From assembly GCA_964595645.1 (NCBI GenBank), contig CAZQQT010000014.1, positions 1 to 11,005 on the forward strand: a stretch of DNA of 11,005 nt. Direction: 5' to 3'. Shown one piece after another: positions 108-10,954 of this stretch. The DNA comes from an uncultured Thermococci archaeon (GTDB lineage: Archaea > Methanobacteriota_B > Thermococci > Methanofastidiosales > B48-G16). Every line of letters starts with the position of its first letter. The stretch's first letter is position 1. The position numbers and the translations under genes were made by a program. Under the pieces are notes generated by a model. It had not been told where the DNA came from and did no database searches. It worked only from the letters and a program-made list of their open reading frames with translations.

Positions 108-305
108 CACACAACAAGAGAACATAGAGCTCTTCCCAACAACAGAGTTAATATGTTTCCCATCTTTACGCTAGTCTTTCAGTAGCCACCCCTTGTATCT
201 TTCCTCAGATTTAGAAAAGAACATTTTACGCCCTATTATTTACAGTAAACAAGAAACAACATGAATATTCTCTGGATGTTATTGCCAAGAACTAGAAATA
301 ATCAT

Positions 306-310
306 AAAAA
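306..310 (-). terminator. Oligo-U tract, probable archaeal terminator of the ncRNA
   Basis: AAAAA on the + strand (UUUUU on -) immediately after the last ANA motif. Confidence 0.4.
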
Positions 311-499
311 TTTTGCCCATCACACTAACACGGAATGTCATCGGTTAGGGGATCCTCTCTCAATCCGCTACTCTCATGTGGGGCTTTTCTGTGTCATGCT
401 TATCCGTAATCATCAATCATACGGCGGGATCATGACACAGTCTCCCCCTTGATTTGCTCCGATTATCATCGTTTCAAACCGGTCCTCTTCCAAGGGGTT
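311..499 (-). ncRNA. Putative three-hairpin archaeal box H/ACA pseudouridylation guide RNA
   Basis: Three consecutive minus-strand hairpins, each with lower stem, internal loop, upper stem and UGA...AUGA K-loop/K-turn, followed by an ANA triplet. HP1 (497-445): CCCCUUG-gaagagga-CCGGUU-ugaaacgaugau-AAUCGG-agcaaau-CAAGGGG-g-AGA. HP2 (440-389): CUGUGUCAUG-aucccg-CCGUA-ugauugaugau-UACGG-auaag-CAUGACACAG-AAA. HP3 (384-315): GCCCCACA-ugagagua-GCGGAU-uga...augac-AUUCCGU-guuag-UGUGauGGGC-AAA. In all three, 15 nt separate the upper stem from ANA. A TATA box lies upstream (528-521) and a U5 tract downstream (310-306). Confidence 0.85.
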
Positions 500-514
500 A
501 CTACATTATAAGAC

Positions 515-537
515 AGGAAAATTTAAAAACTTTTCCT
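515..537. promoter_or_regulatory. Bidirectional archaeal promoter (TATA flanked by inverted BRE-like elements) serving paaK (+) and the H/ACA RNA (-)
   Basis: AGGAAAA-TTTAAAAAC-TTTTCCT: a perfect 7-bp inverted repeat around a TATA readable on both strands. Expected starts (~22-24 nt from the box) fall at ~499 (-) and ~552 (+). Confidence 0.65.
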
Positions 538-2978: not shown

Positions 2979-4316
2979 CTATGTAATATTATCTACCACT
3001 TCTTTTACCGTATTCAACCCAAACTCTACAAGTTTTTTTGCCTCTTTCTTATCTTTTGATTCAGAGTAGCATCGGATTATCGGTTCTGTTCCAGAAGGGC
3101 GGATAATAAACCATCCTTTATTCGTGAATGCCTTTACCCCGTCTGTTGTATCTTTCTTGTATTCTCCAAGTTTCTCCTCAACTCTCCGAATTACTTTTTC
3201 CTTATATTTGTTCTCACAGGATGTCTTTTTTTTGTATTGATAGTACGTGGGAAGCTCATCCATCAATACGGATAATGGTTTTTTCTGTTCAGAGAGTATT
3301 TCCGCTATCTTTAATGTGGCGAGATCTCCATTTTTACCCGGAACAAAATCAGGGAAGATAACACCGCCGCTCTCTTCACCCCCGATGATTCCATTGGATT
3401 CCAATAGCTTTCTTGCCACGATGAGATCACCAACTTCAGTCCGTATCACGCGATCGCCTGCTACGTCATCTATCACCTGTGAGGTGGCAACCGTGGTTAC
3501 TACGGGTCCTTCTCTTTCTTTCACGTAGTGCTTCACCAGCAGTGCAAGGGATCGATCTCCCCGGATAAAATTACCCTTCTCGTCGACAAACATGGCCCTG
3601 TCCGCGTCTCCATCGAAGGCCATTCCAAAATCTGCACCAATACTTTTCACCGTTTCCTTAAGAGCTGTCACGGTTTCAGGCGTGGGTTCCGGACTTCTCC
3701 CTGGAAATGTTCCATCCATATGCCCATTGAGCGTGATAACCTTACAGCCAACTGTTTCGAGAAGGTACGGCAGCGTGCGAGATCCGACACCATTTCCACA
3801 GTCCACGACCACGGTGAGATCCTCTATTTTCTTCGTATTCACAAAGGAAAGTACACTTTCAAAGTATGCATTAAGCACATTTCTTTCTTCTACTTTCCCT
3901 ACATTTTTCCAATTTTTCAGATTAAATTCTTCTTTTTTTATTTTTTCTTCTATAATGGGCTCTTTTTCTTTTTTTAATCCCATACCATTCGGTTCCAGCA
4001 ATTTTATTCCATTGTATTCTGGGGGATTATGGGATGCCGTGATCATGACACCACCTACAGCATCCAATGATTTCGTTGCGAACATCGTTACAGGTGTAGG
4101 AACGGCGCCAACGTCTATTACATCCACACCACAGGAGATGAGTCCAGAGATAAGCGTGTCAGTGAGCATTTTATTCGACGTTCTTCCATCACAGCCTACT
4201 ACTACTGTGCCATCCTGCAGAAACGATCCGAAACTCATCCCCATTTTTAACGCGAGTTCCGGTGTAATTTCTTTATTCACTATACCTCTAATCCCAAATG
4301 TCCCAAATAGACCCAT
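2979..4316 (-). CDS. Alpha-D-phosphohexomutase (phosphoglucomutase/phosphomannomutase; GlmM superfamily), 445 aa
   Basis: True start is MGLFGTFGIRG at 4316, not 4478, which would overlap the divergent gene. Catalytic ITASHNP, metal-binding FDGDADR, sugar-binding GEESGG and phosphate-binding IRPSGTEP motifs are present. Confidence 0.92.
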   Translation of the reverse strand: MGLFGTFGIRGIVNKEITPELALKMGMSFGSFLQDGTVVVGCDGRTSNKMLTDTLISGLISCGVDVIDVGAVPTPVTMFATKSLDAVGGVMITASHNPPEYNGIKLLEPNGMGLKKEKEPIIEEKIKKEEFNLKNWKNVGKVEERNVLNAYFESVLSFVNTKKIEDLTVVVDCGNGVGSRTLPYLLETVGCKVITLNGHMDGTFPGRSPEPTPETVTALKETVKSIGADFGMAFDGDADRAMFVDEKGNFIRGDRSLALLVKHYVKEREGPVVTTVATSQVIDDVAGDRVIRTEVGDLIVARKLLESNGIIGGEESGGVIFPDFVPGKNGDLATLKIAEILSEQKKPLSVLMDELPTYYQYKKKTSCENKYKEKVIRRVEEKLGEYKKDTTDGVKAFTNKGWFIIRPSGTEPIIRCYSESKDKKEAKKLVEFGLNTVKEVVDNIT

Positions 4317-4337
4317 ACAACGAGAGGGGAAGAATAT

Positions 4338-4345
4338 TTTATAAA
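4338..4345. promoter_or_regulatory. Palindromic TATA box (TTTATAAA) between the divergent mutase and nucleotidyltransferase genes
   Basis: Located 22 nt from the mutase ATG (leaderless spacing) and upstream of the GAGGTGA RBS (4367-4373) of the nucleotidyltransferase. Confidence 0.6.
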
Positions 4346-4377
4346 CTTTGGGTATATAACAGTAGCGAGGTGAGCAC

Positions 4378-5280
4378 ATGAAGACAGTAATAATGGCAGG
4401 AGGATACGCCACAAGATTAATGCCGTTGACTGAAAATAAATCAAAACCGTTGCTCCCTGTTGCAGGGAAACCTATCATAAATTATATCATTGAGAAGATC
4501 CCCCAGGATGAGATTATCGTCACGACAAATGAAAAATTTAGAGAGGAATTTGAGAAATGGGAAGCAACAGTGGACAAGAAGATAGATCTCGTGATAGAGG
4601 AAACAAAAAAAGAAGAAGAAAAACTTGGAACTGTCGGGGCAATAAATTACCTTATCAATAAGAAAAATATAGATGAGGACCTCCTTGTCATTGCAGGAGA
4701 TAATATTCTGGAGTTCGATTTCAGTGATTTTATCGCAACTTACGATGGTAGCACTCCACTCATCGCGCTCTTTGATATTGAGGATAAGGACATGGTGAGG
4801 GGTAAGTACGGTGTTGTTCTGCTTGAAGGGAATAACGTGACAGGGTTCCAGGAGAAACCACAAAAACCCAAATCAACGTTAGTGAGTGTGGGGTGTTATA
4901 TCTACCCACAAGATGTCCTTCCGCTCTTTTCAGAATTTTTACAAGAGGCAGATGCATCACAAGACGCACCAGGATATTTTAATCAGTGGCTCAATGAAAA
5001 GAAACCGATGGATGGATTTATTTTCCATGGAGACTGGTTTGATATAGGTGATAGAAAATCGTATATAGAAGCCAATATGAACTACTCAACGAAAGAAGAT
5101 TATATCGCGAGAGATGCTGAAATTGTGAATTCCACCGTGAAAAACTCCGTGATCCTGGAAAATACGAAGATCATCGATTCTTCTGTAGTAGACTGCGTAA
5201 TTGATAAGAACTCCTACCTCGAAGGCATCGAACTGGAAAAGTGCATTGTAGGAGAAGGGACGAAGATCCGAAAAACATGA
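4378..5280 (+). CDS. Sugar-1-phosphate nucleotidyltransferase (NDP-sugar synthase) with a short C-terminal beta-helix-like repeat region
   Basis: IMAGGYATRL..LT...KPLLPVAGKP, LGTVGA, LLVIAGDN, YGVV, FQEKP and WFDIG motifs; C-terminal I/V-rich repeats. RBS GAGGTGA. Confidence 0.9.
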   Translation: MKTVIMAGGYATRLMPLTENKSKPLLPVAGKPIINYIIEKIPQDEIIVTTNEKFREEFEKWEATVDKKIDLVIEETKKEEEKLGTVGAINYLINKKNIDEDLLVIAGDNILEFDFSDFIATYDGSTPLIALFDIEDKDMVRGKYGVVLLEGNNVTGFQEKPQKPKSTLVSVGCYIYPQDVLPLFSEFLQEADASQDAPGYFNQWLNEKKPMDGFIFHGDWFDIGDRKSYIEANMNYSTKEDYIARDAEIVNSTVKNSVILENTKIIDSSVVDCVIDKNSYLEGIELEKCIVGEGTKIRKT

Positions 5281-5290
5281 TGCACTGAGC

Positions 5291-5303
5291 AAAAATTTTT
5301 AAA
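5291..5303 (+). promoter_or_regulatory. Possible BRE/TATA for the trehalose operon
   Basis: AAAAA-TTTTTAAA about 54 nt upstream of the ATG at 5357; GGAGTGA RBS at 5344-5350. Confidence 0.45.
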
Positions 5304-5356
5304 CCTCTTCATAAGAGAAAGCATAACAATTATTGTCTTGTCTGGAGTGAATAAAT

Positions 5357-7555
5357 ATGGAACGATTACTGATTGTGTCGAACCGATTACCCGTGACTGT
5401 CAAGAAAAAAGAGGATGAGTTCGAGTTTAGTGAAAGTATTGGTGGGTTGGCCACTGGGCTCAGTTCCTTTTATGAATCGCGTAATAGCAAATGGATAGGA
5501 TGGAGTGGGATTCCTTCCGAAGAATTAACGAGAGATGAAGAAAATACTATCAAAAAGAAATTAACTGAAGAATTTAGCAACTACCCTGTATTTTTGTCTG
5601 AAAATGACGTTAATAAATATTACTATGGCTTTTGTAACAAGACGATCTGGCCACTGTTTCACTCCTTCACTCAGTATGTAGAGTATGACAGTGAGCTGTG
5701 GAATGCATATAAACGAGTAAATGAAATTTTCTGCAACGAGGTGACGTACATTGCAGAGCCAGAGGACACTCTATGGATCCATGATTATCATTTGATGCTT
5801 CTTCCAAATCTTGTCAGAGAAAAAATACCGGATATTACCATTGGATTCTTCCTCCATATCCCCTTTCCACCCTTTGAGATATTTCACTTGCTTCCATGGC
5901 GGGATCAAATCTTACAGGGTCTTTGGGGAGCAGATCTTATCGGATTTCACACATATGACTACGCCCAGAAATTTCTTAGCAGTGTCCGAAGGTTGTTGGG
6001 ATATGAACCTGTGTTGGGGAAAACAATCGCTGAGGATCGAGTAGTAAAGGTTGATAGCTTCCCGATGGGAATAGATTACGATCGATACGAAAGTGCAGTA
6101 ACTGATTCAGAAGTACAAGAAGAAATTACGCGAATTCATGATGAAGTAGGACATCACGACATCATTTTATCCATGGACAGATTAGATTACACGAAAGGTA
6201 TACTTCAGCGCTTAGAGGCGTTTGATTATTTCTTAGAGAAAAATCCAGAGTATAAGGAAAAAGCAACGCTTATGCTGGTAGCTTCTCCTTCACGCACACG
6301 GGTAAAGCATTATCAAGATCTCAAAAAGCAATTAGAAGAACGCATTGGACGAATCAATGGGAAATACGGGACCATAGAATGGACACCCGTGCGGTACATG
6401 CATCAGGTCATCCCGTTCAAGATACTTATCGCTCTATACAAGATTGCGGACGTAGGGCTCGTGACCCCCCTGAGGGATGGGATGAATCTGATGGCAAAGG
6501 AGTTCCTCGCAACGAAAACTGATGGAAAGGGTGTACTGGTTCTTAGTGAAATGGCAGGTGCAGCCAAAGAAATGGGAGAAGCACTGATAGTAAATCCAAA
6601 TAATAAAGAAGAAATTGCGGAAGCACTAAAAAACGCACTCTCCATGCCAGAAGAAGAACAAAAAAGGCATAATAGAGCAATGCAAAAGAGATTAAAGCGT
6701 TATGATGTTGTACGGTGGGCAAATGATTTTATGGATCAGCTTAATCGAGTAAAAGAAATGCAGGAAGATCTTGAGGTAAGGAAGCTCACCCATAATATGA
6801 AAAAGAAACTACTCACAGAGTACCAGGAGAGTGAGAGTCGACTGGTACTTTTGGACTATGATGGTACACTTGTTCCCTTTGAGAAGAAACCGGAAGAAGC
6901 ACGTCCCGATAATAATCTTTTAACAATACTCGAAGCGCTATGTCACGACGAAAAAAATCATGTGGTAATTGTGAGCGGACGGGATAAAAATACACTCGGA
7001 AGATGGTTTGCAAATCTCGATGTAGCGTTAATTGCAGAACATGGTGTCTGGATTAGAGAAAGAGATGGAGAATGGGAGATGATAGAAAGCCTGGAAAACA
7101 ACTGGAAGGAAGAAATACGACCGATTCTTGAGCTTCATGTTGATAGAACACCTGGATCTTTTATTGAAGAGAAGGAGCACTCCCTCGGGTGGCACAGTCG
7201 GAGGGTGAGCAATCACAAACTACGTTCTGTGAGATCCCGGGAGCTCAAAGAATCCCTCGTTGAGCTTACCGCCAATCTCGGCCTCAAGGTCCTTGAGGGA
7301 GATAAGGTAATTGAGGTGAAGCATCAAGGTGTTGATAAAGGACGAGCAGCAAGAAAATTCCTTTCTGAGAAGGATTGGGATTTTATTATGGCTATTGGAG
7401 ATGATTGGACAGACGAAGATACATTCAGTGTGCTCCCAGACTCGGCGTATTCTATAAAAGTTGGACTACAGCCTTCAGAGGCTAACTACAACATTCCTTC
7501 TGTAAATGATGTAAGGTCATTACTGAAAGAGATACGTGAAATAGAAGGAGAGTAA
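5357..7555 (+). CDS. Bifunctional trehalose-6-phosphate synthase/phosphatase (GT20 OtsA domain fused to HAD-IIB OtsB domain)
   Basis: GT20 motifs [35 protein letters not shown] and LRDGMNL. HAD motifs [19 protein letters not shown] and GDDWTDE. Confidence 0.95.
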
Positions 7556-7559
7556 CTGT

Positions 7560-8777
7560 ATGGACGGAAATTATATGCGGACGTTAGAAGATTATCGAGA
7601 AATTGTAGGGGATAGAGTACTCAATGATATTTACCGCAGGAAAAAGACGTACGGAAAGCGCGTGTTGCACATAAATTCTACGTACCAAGGGGGTGGTGTT
7701 GCAGAGATTCTGAATTCCTTGGTCCTCCTCATGAACGATGTGGGTGTACAAACGGACTGGAAAATTTTACACGGTACCCCTGACTTTTTTACCATTACCA
7801 AAAAGTTTCATAACGGTCTTCAGGGAGATTCTATCAATATCTCAGCCATGAAGAAAAGGATTTACTACGAGGTAAACAAAAAGAACTCGGTGTTCACCTC
7901 CGTGGATCAGGATTTCGTTATTGTTCACGATCCCCAGCCTCTTCCCATCATACGGTTTTATCAGAAAACGCAACCATGGGTATGGCGGTGTCACATCGAT
8001 CTGAGTGAGCCTTACCTCCCCCTTTGGGAGTACCTTACAGGGTTTGTGTCCAGGTATGACAAAATGATTGTATCCATGGAGGATTATAAACGAAATGATT
8101 TACAGATTGATCAACAGGTGATTATGCCTGCGATTGACCCCTTGACACCCAAAAACAAAAAATTGCCAGAACGAACAGTCTCAAAATATCTTTCAAAAAA
8201 TGGTATTGAACGAGATAAACCAATTATTGCGCAGGTATCACGATTTGACAAATGGAAGGATCCTCTCGGTGTGATAAAGGTCTTCGAACTGGTAAAAGAG
8301 AAGGTCGACTGTCAACTTGTGTGGGTGGGAAACATGGTGGTGGACGATCCAGAGAGTACTGACATTTATAATGAAGTTATAGAGAGAACAAAGGAAAGAG
8401 ATGACATCACGATTCTCGCAAATGTAACAGATATTGTGGTGAATGCGGTGCAACGGGCCTCTACTGTCATGATGCAGAAGTCGATTCGTGAAGGATTTAG
8501 TCTTACTGTGTCCGAAGCCTTGTGGAAGGGGACACCAGTAGTAGCGTCGAATGTGGGGGGCATACCCCTTCAGGTAATCAATGGGGACACAGGGTATTTG
8601 GTCGAACCTCATGATGTAAAAGGAACAGCAAAAAGAGTAATAAAAATCCTGCAGAACGAAAAAATCGCCAAAAAAATAGGCAAAAGAGCAAAAGAACATG
8701 TGAGAGAAAATTTCCTCATTACACGGTTATTATCTGATTATTTAGGGCTGCTAGAGCATCTGAGTGACAAAAAATGA
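7560..8777 (+). CDS. treT: TreT-type glycosyl-transferring trehalose synthase (GT4)
   Basis: LEDY..IVG, HINST..GGGVAEIL, TKKFHNGLQG, VHDPQP, WRCHIDLS, QVSRFDKWKDPLGVI and QKSIREGF.LTVSEA.WKGTPV match the TreT family. Starts 4 nt after the TPS/TPP stop; alternative start at 7575. Confidence 0.82.
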   Translation: MDGNYMRTLEDYREIVGDRVLNDIYRRKKTYGKRVLHINSTYQGGGVAEILNSLVLLMNDVGVQTDWKILHGTPDFFTITKKFHNGLQGDSINISAMKKRIYYEVNKKNSVFTSVDQDFVIVHDPQPLPIIRFYQKTQPWVWRCHIDLSEPYLPLWEYLTGFVSRYDKMIVSMEDYKRNDLQIDQQVIMPAIDPLTPKNKKLPERTVSKYLSKNGIERDKPIIAQVSRFDKWKDPLGVIKVFELVKEKVDCQLVWVGNMVVDDPESTDIYNEVIERTKERDDITILANVTDIVVNAVQRASTVMMQKSIREGFSLTVSEALWKGTPVVASNVGGIPLQVINGDTGYLVEPHDVKGTAKRVIKILQNEKIAKKIGKRAKEHVRENFLITRLLSDYLGLLEHLSDKK

Positions 8778-8801: not shown

Positions 8802-10544
8802 TTACCGATATATTTTTCTGATTTTTTCTTTATATAGTTTTATCATTTCTTCCATCTTTTCCTCATCAAGTTTTCCCTGCAGTGTTTCTGTTTCAAAAAA
8901 TCTTTTTGGTATCTTTACTTTAGCAAGATCGTATCCTATATCTTTCTTTATTTTCATTTTTTGTTTGTATATTTTTTTACCGAGCTTTTTCAGTGTTTCT
9001 TTATTCTTATGTACCCCTACGGTTTTCAGCGCACGAGAGACAAGATCGAGATCGTAGATACCCCGAGAGAACAAGCACATGATCAGTGATTCGTAGATAC
9101 ATCTCGTTTGCTCTTCAGTCAGCAACCTATCTACAATGTCTTCCGGTGTTGCTGTTTCCTCTATTTTTTGATCGATAGAATATCCCCCGGAGAGATGAGA
9201 GTGTCGAGCACCAAAGGTTACTCCAAGAATATTGGCATACCCGGTGTGGTAACCCGGCATCTCATTGCCTCCGAGAGCCAGGGCAAAGTCTTCTCCACCG
9301 TACATTTTCGATGCGTAGTCAACACCTCTGCCCAGTGCTTCAAAAAAACTGTTTTCTTTTTCTACCAACGAATCTATAAATTTCAAATAAGTTTCTTTAT
9401 CTCCAAACTCCAACGCGTACTTCGTTTCTTTCTCTGATACTACTCCCTTTTTCAGTGCTTCTGTTGCCCAGGCCAGACAGACGCCAGTACTCATTGCATC
9501 CAACCCATGCATTTCCACCCGTTCCATAAGTTCAAGAACATCAGAAGGGTCATCTATTTCGAGCATCGTGCCAAGTGCGAATATTGGTTCATAGTCGTAG
9601 CTCACCTGACTGAACTCATACTCGTGGTCTGGGGCGAACTGCCGCTTCAGCATTCCGATATGAATACACCCAATAGGACATCCTACGCATGCTTCCTTCC
9701 TCATTAATATTTTCTCTCCGAAACTCTCTCCGCTTATGTTTTCTGCGTTCTCAAAGGAGCTCCTCTGTAGGTTTCTTGTAGGAAGAGCATTCATTTCGTT
9801 GAGCGGCAGAATATTTTTTGATGTACCAAGATCGTGGTACTTTTTCATCTTATCTGTGCCCGTCACCAGCTCGTTGATCTTCTTATAGAGTGCGATGTAT
9901 TCCTGAAAGTTTTGTATGGGATACGATTTTGTTCCAGAGATTATCATCGCCTTCAAATTTTTTGATCCCATCACTGCACCCAGTCCAAGTCTCCCGAAGT
10001 GTCGGAAGGAATCAACATTCAGACACGCATATCTGATCTCATCTTCGCCGGCAGGGCCAATGCGTATGATGGATCGATGGCCCCTTCCTGGCTCAAGGTT
10101 CCGGATTATTCGTCCTGTTTTCTCTACAGGCAGACCCCAGAGGGTTTCTGCGTTTTTGAACCGTATTTTGTCATTGTGGATCGAGATGTACTTTGGATCT
10201 GCGGATTTACCTTCTATTACTACTGCATCGTATCCTGCAAATCTGATAGAGGACGCTAACCTTCCTCCTCCATAGCTTTCTCCGTACTCGCCGGTAAGAG
10301 GAGATTTAAAAGTGGCAACAGTCTTTGTCATTACAGGATAGATTGCAGACAGCGGTCCTATTGCGAAAATAATGGGTTGATCGGGTGCAAGAGGATCTTT
10401 TTTCTTTTCACACTGCTCATCGAGGAGCTTTGCCCCTACACCGACACCACCAAGGTACTCTGTCAAGTCTTCTCTTTTCTCTACCTTTGTTGTTTCCTCT
10501 GTGAGATTGATTCTAAGTATTTTGATGTAGTCTTTGTTCATCAT
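8802..10544 (-). CDS. aor: Tungsten-dependent aldehyde:ferredoxin oxidoreductase family protein
   Basis: YLGG.G, KSPLTG...ES.GGG, AGYDAVVIEG, RIGPAGE, GRLGLGAVMGSKNLKA, LPTRN, C..C...C (EACVGCPIGC), YEP...LG, GLDAMS and a fourth Cys in LIMCLF. Confidence 0.9.
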   Translation of the reverse strand: MMNKDYIKILRINLTEETTKVEKREDLTEYLGGVGVGAKLLDEQCEKKKDPLAPDQPIIFAIGPLSAIYPVMTKTVATFKSPLTGEYGESYGGGRLASSIRFAGYDAVVIEGKSADPKYISIHNDKIRFKNAETLWGLPVEKTGRIIRNLEPGRGHRSIIRIGPAGEDEIRYACLNVDSFRHFGRLGLGAVMGSKNLKAMIISGTKSYPIQNFQEYIALYKKINELVTGTDKMKKYHDLGTSKNILPLNEMNALPTRNLQRSSFENAENISGESFGEKILMRKEACVGCPIGCIHIGMLKRQFAPDHEYEFSQVSYDYEPIFALGTMLEIDDPSDVLELMERVEMHGLDAMSTGVCLAWATEALKKGVVSEKETKYALEFGDKETYLKFIDSLVEKENSFFEALGRGVDYASKMYGGEDFALALGGNEMPGYHTGYANILGVTFGARHSHLSGGYSIDQKIEETATPEDIVDRLLTEEQTRCIYESLIMCLFSRGIYDLDLVSRALKTVGVHKNKETLKKLGKKIYKQKMKIKKDIGYDLAKVKIPKRFFETETLQGKLDEEKMEEMIKLYKEKIRKIYR

Positions 10545-10954
10545 TCCACTTCCACCTCCTCAAAGCTTATGCAGCCGTGAGGGCAGTATAATGTACAGAT
10601 TCCGCACTGTTTGCAGACGATGGGTACATTTTTTTCCTTATCGAACCATATCGCATCCACTACGCATGCTTTGATGCACTGACGGCATCCGATACACTGC
10701 TCTTCGTCAAGGGTCACCCCCCCTCCTTCTCTCGGCGAAAGTGCATCTGTAGGACACACTGCGGCACAGGGAGGGTCATTACATCCAATACACGCATCAA
10801 TTACAAACTGTCCTTCGAGTCCCCCCTCTGTCTTAATTCTAATTGCACTCTTTGTGATGGAGTGGGACTTGTATTGATAGCTCGAACAGACAATGGCGCA
10901 TAGGTTACACCCTATACACCTTCCTGGATTGGGTATTTTCAGCTTTTTTGTCAT
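10541..10954 (-). CDS. 4Fe-4S ferredoxin-like electron-transfer subunit (DmsB/HybA-like, 16 Cys)
   Basis: CIGCNLCAIVC, CIGCNDPPCAAVCP, CIGCRQCIKAC and CKQCGICTLYCP. ATGA overlap with aor; GGAGGT RBS. Confidence 0.9.
   Translation of the reverse strand: MTKKLKIPNPGRCIGCNLCAIVCSSYQYKSHSITKSAIRIKTEGGLEGQFVIDACIGCNDPPCAAVCPTDALSPREGGGVTLDEEQCIGCRQCIKACVVDAIWFDKEKNVPIVCKQCGICTLYCPHGCISFEEVEVE

What the first reader, a model, noticed from the sequence alone, without database searches (positions are those of the whole stretch)
311..499. Hidden three-hairpin box H/ACA guide RNA with its own promoter and terminator
Seen in sequence: three back-to-back minus-strand hairpins with the same architecture. 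Each has a lower stem, a bipartite internal loop, a 5-6 bp upper stem (G-U pairs support the minus strand), an apical UGA...AUGAU/C motif and an ANA triplet 15 nt after the upper stem. A TATA box sits at the right distance upstream and a U-tract follows directly. Established knowledge: archaeal H/ACA RNAs have 1-3 such hairpins, bind L7Ae through a K-turn/K-loop and Cbf5 through the ANA box, with 14-16 nt spacing. Inference: this is a pseudouridylation guide that ORF-based annotation would miss or mis-call as the 63-aa ORF.
Basis: partly seen in the sequence, partly recalled or inferred. Interest (0 to 1): 0.88.

Follow-up and report, generated by a model that had tools for sequence, protein, structure and literature searches.

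The report
Three-hairpin H/ACA guide RNA gene
The minus strand of 306-500 encodes a roughly 195-nt small RNA with three hairpins that directs pseudouridine formation in ribosomal RNA; it is a divergent copy of the known Pyrococcus Pab40/HgcG RNA in an uncultured sister order, so it is real but an ordinary kind of gene.

Summary
Window 306-500 (minus strand) folds into three consecutive hairpins, each with a lower stem, pocket, upper stem, K-loop or K-turn and ANA box. A BRE/TATA element (522-533) lies upstream and a T5 tract (306-310) follows.

Rfam's HgcG model (RF00064, Pab40/Pf7) matches at 62.7 bits, E 1e-16. This is below the gathering score of 77, so standard annotation misses it.

A model built from three family members finds one copy in 32 of 34 genomes of the order. 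It also hits the Pab40 loci of Thermococcaceae. In the model-fitted alignment, 31 of 46 pairs show compensatory changes, against 6-9 in slid controls.

Cbf5, Nop10, Gar1 and L7Ae are all encoded in the genome. The antisense 63-aa ORF is broken in relatives.

- **Hairpin 1:** its best rRNA match is the orthologue of the proven Pab40 motif-1 site, but pairing is only 4+4 bp here.
- **Hairpin 3:** it pairs with 23S helix 69, as Pab40 motif 3 does. In this genus the target base (E. coli 1915) is C, so the outcome is unclear.
- **Hairpin 2:** no convincing target was found.

Expression could not be tested. This is a new member of a known family and of modest interest.

The parts
522..533 (-). Archaeal promoter: BRE-like AAAG plus TATA box TTTTTAAA, with 24 nt between it and hairpin 1
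   Evidence: Read from the sequence. The block AAAGTTTTTAAA is identical in the G002 and G005 orthologues. That this is the functional promoter is inference.
306..500 (-). Whole H/ACA sRNA gene, about 195 nt. The start near 498-501 is inferred; the 3' end lies in the T-tract.
   Evidence: RF00064 hit at 62.7 bits, E 1e-16. Own model R1 scores 230 bits here and finds one copy in 32 of 34 genomes of the order. Covariation.
441..497 (-). Hairpin 1 with its AGA box (441-443). Pocket: 5' guide AAGAGGA (483-489), 3' guide AGCAAA (453-458). K-loop at 465-476.
   Evidence: Helices 1 and 2 are 98-99% paired, and 12 of 13 pairs show double-sided changes. The best rRNA match is LSU U2564, the orthologue of P. 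abyssi psi2588.
385..440 (-). Hairpin 2 with its AAA box (386-388). Pocket: AUCCCG (425-430) and AUAAG (399-403). K-loop at 409-419.
   Evidence: Helices 3 and 4 are 94-97% paired, and 10 of 15 pairs show double-sided changes. The compact form of this hairpin occurs only in family f1. The target is unresolved.
311..384 (-). Hairpin 3 with its AAA box (311-314). Pocket: GAGAGUAG (368-375) and UGUUA (326-330). K-turn region at 338-360.
   Evidence: GAGAGU, GUUAG and AUGA are conserved in most of the 30 aligned sequences, and all 6 upper-stem pairs covary. The pocket pairs with both flanks of the 23S helix 69 loop.
306..310 (-). T5 tract directly after the last ANA box; likely archaeal terminator
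   Evidence: Read from the sequence. T-rich in the f1 orthologues. The terminator role is inferred.
261..452 (+). Spurious 63-aa ORF antisense to the sRNA
   Evidence: No Pfam family. The frame is interrupted or shifted in G001, G002, G004 and G005.

Best explanation
Window 306-500 (minus strand) is an independently transcribed box H/ACA small RNA with three guide hairpins. It is the orthologue of Pyrococcus Pab40/Pf7 (Rfam HgcG) in a sister order of Thermococcales.

Proposed mechanism, inferred from the family: L7Ae binds the K-loop or K-turn of each hairpin. Cbf5 with Nop10 and Gar1 binds the ANA box and lower stem. The two strands of each internal loop pair with rRNA on either side of a uridine, which Cbf5 converts to pseudouridine.

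- Hairpin 1 most likely guides the 23S domain V uridine at LSU 2564 (P. abyssi psi2588 equivalent).
- Hairpin 3 docks on the 23S helix 69 loop. In relatives it presents U(E. coli 1915). In this genus that base is C, so it either acts on U1917 through an enlarged pocket or makes no pseudouridine.
- Hairpin 2 is a family-specific replacement with an unassigned target.
For: Family identity:
- The only significant Rfam hit in the region, and the single hit in the genome, is HgcG/Pab40: E 1e-16, full-length over model positions 1-276.
- All 27 Thermococcaceae genomes hit the same model above its cut-off.
- My model R1, built from three f1 sequences, hits those Pab40 loci in return, with E from 2e-10 to 7.5e-5 for five full-length matches.

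Conservation and structure:
- One copy was found in 32 of 34 genomes of the order.
- 89% of cells are paired, against 36-46% when partners are slid. 31 of 46 pairs have changes on both sides, against 6-9 when slid, and 0 of 500 shuffles reach this.
- RNAalifold on an unbiased MAFFT alignment of 5 sequences predicts the same three hairpins, with 13 compensated pairs.
- The minus-strand fold has z = -4.2.

Geometry fits the rules of PMC2377435 (upper helix 5-6 bp; ANA 14-15 nt from the target) for hairpins 1 and 2.

Targets:
- Hairpin 1's best site among all positions of both rRNAs is the orthologous UUGC-UA-CCUC site in G000, G001, G006 and Pyrococcus G055. That site is the experimentally assigned Pab40 motif-1 target.
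- Hairpin 3's best site is helix 69 in G055 and G006 with a 2-nt gap, and in G000 and G002 with a 4-nt gap.
- Guide and target differ together. The Pyrococcus G055 rRNA reads UAACCC and its guide GGGUUA. The rRNA of this order reads (U)AACUCUC and its guide GAGAGU(UA).

The partner proteins Cbf5, Nop10, Gar1 and L7Ae are all encoded.
Against: - The Rfam score of 62.7 bits is below the curated gathering score of 77.
- There is no expression evidence.
- In this genome hairpin 1 has only 4+4 bp with its target, because the 5' guide reads AAGAGG where nearly all relatives read GCGAGG.
- Hairpin 3's canonical register puts a C, not a U, in the catalytic position. Its ANA spacing is 15-16 nt.
- Hairpin 2 has only weak 3+4 or 3+5 bp candidates.
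- Alignment A3 was fitted to the model, so its pair counts lean towards the structure.
Confidence: 0.9

Rival explanations
1. The RNA is an H/ACA-derived relic in this genome. It is still transcribed and folded, but most of its guide function has decayed.
For: - Hairpin 1 has a G000-specific GC-to-AA change that removes pairing beyond 4 bp on the 5' guide side.
- The hairpin 3 target base is C in G000 and G001.
- The G001 5' guide of hairpin 3 has a further change, GAGAGAA.
- Hairpin 2 has no convincing target.
Against: - All stems, K-motifs and ANA boxes are intact and still covary within family f1.
- The 3' guide of hairpin 1 is unchanged, and PMC2377435 reports that this side matters more.
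- The hairpin 1 target is still the top-ranked site.
Confidence: 0.06
2. The region is protein-coding: the 63-aa plus-strand ORF at 261-452 is the real gene.
For: An ATG-initiated open frame of 63 codons exists.
Against: - There is no Pfam match.
- The frame is cut by stops or shifted in all four f1 orthologous loci, while the RNA structure is kept by compensatory changes.
Confidence: 0.01
3. It is another K-turn RNA, such as a box C/D sRNA, or a cis-regulatory or antisense element of the divergently transcribed AMP-binding ligase gene (565-1854).
For: - GAUGA motifs resemble box C.
- The ligase gene is its neighbour in all five f1 genomes.
Against: - There is no C/D family hit at any useful score, and I saw no box D (CUGA) paired with the GAUGA motifs (reading).
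- The RNA is conserved across the order and in Thermococcaceae, where the tblastn for the ligase found no match in the fetched loci.
- It has its own promoter and T-tract.
Confidence: 0.02

Closest known systems
Pab40 / Pf7 / HgcG (Rfam RF00064), the three-motif H/ACA sRNA of Pyrococcus and Thermococcus
   Same: - Three hairpins in the same order.
- Motif 1 has a K-loop and the same 23S domain V target (P. abyssi psi2588).
- Motif 3 has a K-turn, the same UGUUA 3' guide and the helix 69 target (P. abyssi 2016).
- An ANA box follows each hairpin.
- TATA-driven and single-copy.
- Detection is reciprocal between the covariance models.
   Different: - Lower G+C (46% against 60-71% in the matches), shorter, and below the Rfam gathering score.
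- Motif 2 is a compact 5-bp K-loop hairpin with a different pocket, in place of the long K-turn motif.
- The terminal boxes are AGA, AAA and AAA rather than ACA.
- The hairpin 3 5' guide pairs with the whole 3' strand of helix 69 (GAGAGU), with a disturbed top.
- The target base is C in this genus.
Afu-4 of Archaeoglobus fulgidus, a three-motif H/ACA sRNA
   Same: [quoted passage not shown]
   Different: It was not compared here at the sequence level. It belongs to a different class.
Eukaryotic snoRNA snR191 (yeast psi2258/psi2260) and Haloferax sR-h45, guides for the two helix 69 pseudouridines
   Same: They target the E. coli 1915 and 1917 equivalents of helix 69. This is from my own knowledge and was not checked here.
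   Different: No sequence relationship was tested. They serve only as a functional analogy for a guide that may reach two neighbouring uridines.

Membership tests
Archaeal box H/ACA sRNA | Hairpin made of lower stem, internal loop (pocket) and upper stem, supported by covariation | tested here: met
   Three such hairpins. 31 of 46 pairs are compensated, against 6-9 in slid controls. RNAalifold predicts them independently.
Archaeal box H/ACA sRNA | K-turn or K-loop (tandem GA...UGA) 5-6 bp above the pocket (PMC2377435) | tested here: met
   Hairpin 1 has 6 bp and hairpin 2 has 5 bp below a UGA...UGAU loop. Hairpin 3 has 7 positions below AGAGA...GAUGA, the same length as Pab40 motif 3 in the Rfam consensus. 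The GA/UGA letters are conserved in nearly all sequences where the hairpin aligns. L7Ae binding itself was not tested.
Archaeal box H/ACA sRNA | ANA box 14-15 nt from the target position (PMC2377435) | tested here: inconclusive
   Hairpin 1: 14-15 nt (AGA). Hairpin 2: 15 nt (AAA). Hairpin 3: 15-16 nt in the 1915 register and 17-18 nt in a 1917 register.
Archaeal box H/ACA sRNA | Both pocket strands complementary to rRNA flanking an unpaired U-N | tested here: inconclusive
   Hairpin 1: met, as the top-ranked site, but only 4+4 bp. Hairpin 3: 4+6 bp around a 4-nt gap whose first base is C. Hairpin 2: only weak candidates.
Archaeal box H/ACA sRNA | Cbf5, Nop10, Gar1 and L7Ae encoded in the genome | tested here: met
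   DKCLD domain 49.5 bits, Nop10p 70.3 bits, Gar1 34.9 bits and Ribosomal_L7Ae 91.7 and 68.6 bits, all above their cut-offs.
Archaeal box H/ACA sRNA | Expressed as a stable small RNA | not testable with these tools
Promoter and T-tract are inferred from the sequence only.
Rfam RF00064 HgcG (Pab40) | Score at or above the curated gathering score of 77 bits | tested here: not met
   62.7 bits, E 1e-16. Model positions 1-57 are 5' flank rather than RNA according to P. abyssi RNA-seq (PMC4652768), which may cost score in a distant lineage.
Rfam RF00064 HgcG (Pab40) | Orthology: unique reciprocal hit, same motif order, same targets for motifs 1 and 3 | tested here: met
   Single hit per genome. R1 hits the Pab40 loci. 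Motif 1 and motif 3 target sites are shared.

The most novel reading that the evidence does not exclude
In this genus (G000 and G001) the helix 69 uridine that hairpin 3 guides in relatives (E. coli 1915 equivalent) has become C, yet the hairpin is kept. The top of its 5' guide is loosened, so four rRNA bases (C-A-U-A) stay unpaired in the pocket. The guide may therefore have been re-aimed two bases downstream to U1917. Alternatively it may persist as a modification-independent docking or chaperone element on helix 69. Either case would be a natural example of a guide outliving or following its target.
Probability: 0.3. Interest if true: 0.5.

Novelty: new member of a known kind. Interest (0 to 1): 0.3.

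Why it matters
- **Annotation:** the Pab40/HgcG family extends beyond Thermococcales to a whole uncultured sister order, where Rfam's threshold misses it. Those genomes therefore currently lack this annotation, and ORF callers could mis-call an antisense ORF.
- **Resource:** the 30-sequence alignment gives a covariation-supported model that could be used to extend the Rfam family.
- **Biology:** the lineage shows guide and target changing together at helix 69, replacement of the middle hairpin, and a guide whose target uridine has been lost. These are useful test cases for how H/ACA guides evolve.
- **Caveat:** none of this changes the accepted picture of H/ACA RNPs.

Tried and rejected
- **Rigid pocket scan:** fixed pocket boundaries failed to recover even the proven Pyrococcus targets. 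I replaced it with a scan that allows 0-2 unpaired guide bases at the top of the pocket.
- **Lower stem included in the guide arms:** this gave spurious long pairings for hairpin 3, so the arms were restricted to the pocket.
- **Hairpin 2 target:** the Pab40 motif-2 sites (P. abyssi 1932 and 2678 equivalents, G000 LSU 1908 and 2654) show no complementarity to this pocket (by inspection). A three-genome scan left only 16S U619 and 23S U1803, with 3+4 or 3+5 bp. That is too weak to assign.
- **Second helix 69 guide:** a genome-wide regex for another guide for helix 69 U1917 returned 176 unfiltered hits and was uninformative.
- **Bacterial promoter/terminator scan:** it does not apply to an archaeon and found nothing relevant on the minus strand.
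- **Organism name:** relatives' records carry only MAG titles such as 'Thermococci archaeon', 'Methanomicrobia archaeon' and 'Methanobacteriota archaeon'. Assigning the order to Methanofastidiosales is my unverified inference from GTDB knowledge.

Full report
**1. Observation**

Read as RNA, the minus strand of 306-500 forms three consecutive hairpins.

- **Hairpin 1 (445-497).** Lower stem CCCCUUGG/UCAAGGGG. Pocket strands AAGAGGA and AGCAAA. A 6-bp upper stem CCGGUU/AAUCGG that includes a G-U pair. Loop UGAAACGAUGAU. The box AGA follows.
- **Hairpin 2 (389-440).** A 10-bp lower stem. Pocket strands AUCCCG and AUAAG. A 5-bp upper stem. Loop UGAUUGAUGAU. The box AAA follows.
- **Hairpin 3 (315-384).** A lower stem of 4+5 bp with a 2-nt bulge. 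Pocket strands GAGAGUAG and UGUUA. A 7-position upper stem. A K-turn-like AGAGA...GAUGA around a 3-bp apical stem. Then AAAA and T5.

AAAG-TTTTTAAA lies at 522-533, with 24 nt between it and hairpin 1.

RNAfold gives -62.1 kcal/mol for the minus strand (z = -4.2; 0 of 200 shuffles as good). The plus strand gives z = -1.8. The only correction is that hairpin 3 has a K-turn and an ANA spacing of 16 nt rather than 15.

**2. Identity**

At gathering thresholds Rfam reports nothing in the window. With E-value reporting, the only significant hit is RF00064 HgcG (Pab40, H/ACA). It spans 306-556 on the minus strand at 62.7 bits, E 1.4e-16, over the full model length; the gathering score is 77. It is also the only hit in the 1.97-Mb genome.

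The window is a whole 11-kb contig of that genome.

All 27 genomes of family f5 hit the model above its cut-off. One of those hits, G036 at 382332-382604, has exactly the coordinates that PMC4652768 gives for Pab40 in P. abyssi. Family f5 is therefore Thermococcaceae, and the window's organism belongs to another order of the same class. Relatives are unnamed MAGs. Methanofastidiosales is my unverified guess for the order.

P. abyssi RNA-seq shows that Pab40 starts at the first base of motif 1 (PMC4652768). The first 57 positions of the Rfam model are therefore promoter flank. In my reading this contributes to the low score in a distant lineage.

**3. Conservation and covariation**

I built a covariance model (R1) from G000, G002 and G005, using the three-hairpin structure.

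- R1 finds exactly one match in 32 of 34 genomes of the order, including all 19 high-quality genomes.
- It also hits the Pab40 loci of Thermococcaceae, with E from 2e-10 to 7.5e-5 for five full-length matches.
- On the 30-sequence alignment, 89% of cells are standard pairs, against 36-46% when partners are slid.
- 31 of 46 pairs change on both sides, against 6-9 when slid. No shuffle out of 500 reaches the observed values.

That alignment is fitted to the model. I therefore also ran RNAalifold on a plain MAFFT alignment of the five family-f1 sequences. It predicts the same three hairpins, with 13 compensated pairs.

The GA...UGA letters of the K-motifs, the ANA boxes and the pocket cores (GCGAGG, AGCAAA, GAGAGU, GUUAG) are conserved while the stems vary.

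The middle hairpin differs between families. It is compact with a K-loop in f1. It is long with a K-turn in f2, as in Pyrococcus. Several f3 and f4 matches are much shorter (140-151 nt).

**4. Protein partners and rival readings**

Cbf5 (DKCLD domain), Nop10, Gar1 and two L7Ae-family genes are present above their Pfam cut-offs.

The 63-aa antisense ORF has no Pfam family. It is broken or frame-shifted in G001, G002, G004 and G005.

The divergent AMP-binding ligase gene (565-1854) is the neighbour only within family f1. The RNA is therefore not tied to that gene.

**5. Targets**

PMC2377435 assigns the Pab40 motifs as follows: motif 1 to 23S psi2588, motif 2 to 1932, and motif 3 to 2016. Its stated rules are an upper helix of 5-6 bp, an ANA box 14-15 nt from the target, greater importance of the 3' guide, and tolerance of an unpaired UNN.

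*Hairpin 1.* I scanned every position of both rRNAs, allowing 0-2 unpaired guide bases at the top of the pocket. The best site in G000, G001, G006 and Pyrococcus G055 is the same orthologous site, UUGC-UA-CCUC(GCU). This is G000 LSU 2564, the psi2588 equivalent. In G000 the 5' guide reads AAGAGG where nearly all relatives read GCGAGG. Pairing here is therefore 4+4 bp, against 4+7 to 4+9 bp in the relatives.

*Hairpin 3.* In Pyrococcus and in G006 the best site with the canonical 2-nt gap is the helix 69 loop U in GUAAC-UA-UAAC. From my own knowledge of the E. coli sequence this is position 1915. Guide and target differ together: the Pyrococcus G055 rRNA reads UAACCC with guide GGGUUA, while this order's rRNA reads UAACUCUC with guide GAGAGUUA.

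In family f1 the guide is GAGAGUAG. The best site is again helix 69, but it requires a 4-nt gap or a bulged A.

In G000 and G001 the 1915 base is C. This variant occurs in 2 of 133 genomes of the phylum. The U form occurs in 68 of the 83 other genomes that are at least 95% complete.

Hairpin 3 of this genome therefore docks on helix 69 with a C in the canonical catalytic position. It could still reach U1917, but with only 2 contiguous pairs on the 3' guide side and an ANA spacing of 17-18 nt. My analysis agrees that helix 69 is the docking site, but leaves the product open.

*Hairpin 2.* No target could be assigned. The only candidates conserved across three genomes are 16S U619 and 23S U1803, and both are weak.

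**6. Verdict**

It is not a new kind of element. It is a sub-threshold orthologue of Pab40/HgcG in a sister order of Thermococcales.

What is shown:
- the structure and its covariation;
- family homology;
- the presence of the partner proteins;
- the top-ranked, orthologous complementarity of hairpins 1 and 3.

What is inferred:
- transcription from the TATA box to the T-tract;
- binding by the RNP proteins;
- the actual pseudouridines formed.

Expression could not be examined.

Noticed in passing
G000:C2:120491-120515 (23S rRNA, locus L031); also G001:C51:13995-14019: The helix 69 loop reads AACCAUA instead of AACUAUA. The normally conserved U at the E. coli 1915 position is C in G000 and G001 only, 2 of 133 genomes in the phylum. 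The U form is in 68 of the 83 other genomes that are at least 95% complete.
   Followed up: partly
window 483-489 (minus strand): The 5' guide of hairpin 1 reads AAGAGGA in this genome. Nearly all relatives, including Pyrococcus, read GCGAGG. The target rRNA is unchanged, so several guide-target pairs are lost here.
   Followed up: partly
alignment A3; loci L045-L069: The middle hairpin is the variable part of the family. It is a compact K-loop hairpin in f1 and a long K-turn hairpin in f2 and Thermococcaceae. Several f3 and f4 matches are only 140-151 nt. In f2 the hairpin is followed by AUCA rather than a clear ANA.
   Followed up: no
window 2979-8777: Sugar and trehalose gene cluster: phosphoglucomutase (2979-4478, minus strand), a nucleotidyl transferase (4378-5280), a fused trehalose-6-phosphate synthase/phosphatase (5357-7555) and a TreT-type trehalose synthase (7560-8777). 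Two trehalose routes sit side by side.
   Followed up: no
window 8802-10954 (minus strand): An aldehyde:ferredoxin oxidoreductase (8802-10544) lies downstream of a 4Fe-4S ferredoxin-like gene (10541-10954) that overlaps its start. A GPR1/FUN34/YaaH family gene (1875-2426) and a DUF3795 gene (2572-2913) are also present.
   Followed up: no
Rfam RF00064 model positions 1-57: The Rfam HgcG model includes about 57 nt of promoter flank that is not part of the transcript according to P. abyssi RNA-seq (PMC4652768). No genome of this order reached the gathering score (best 62.7 bits, against a cut-off of 77).
   Followed up: partly
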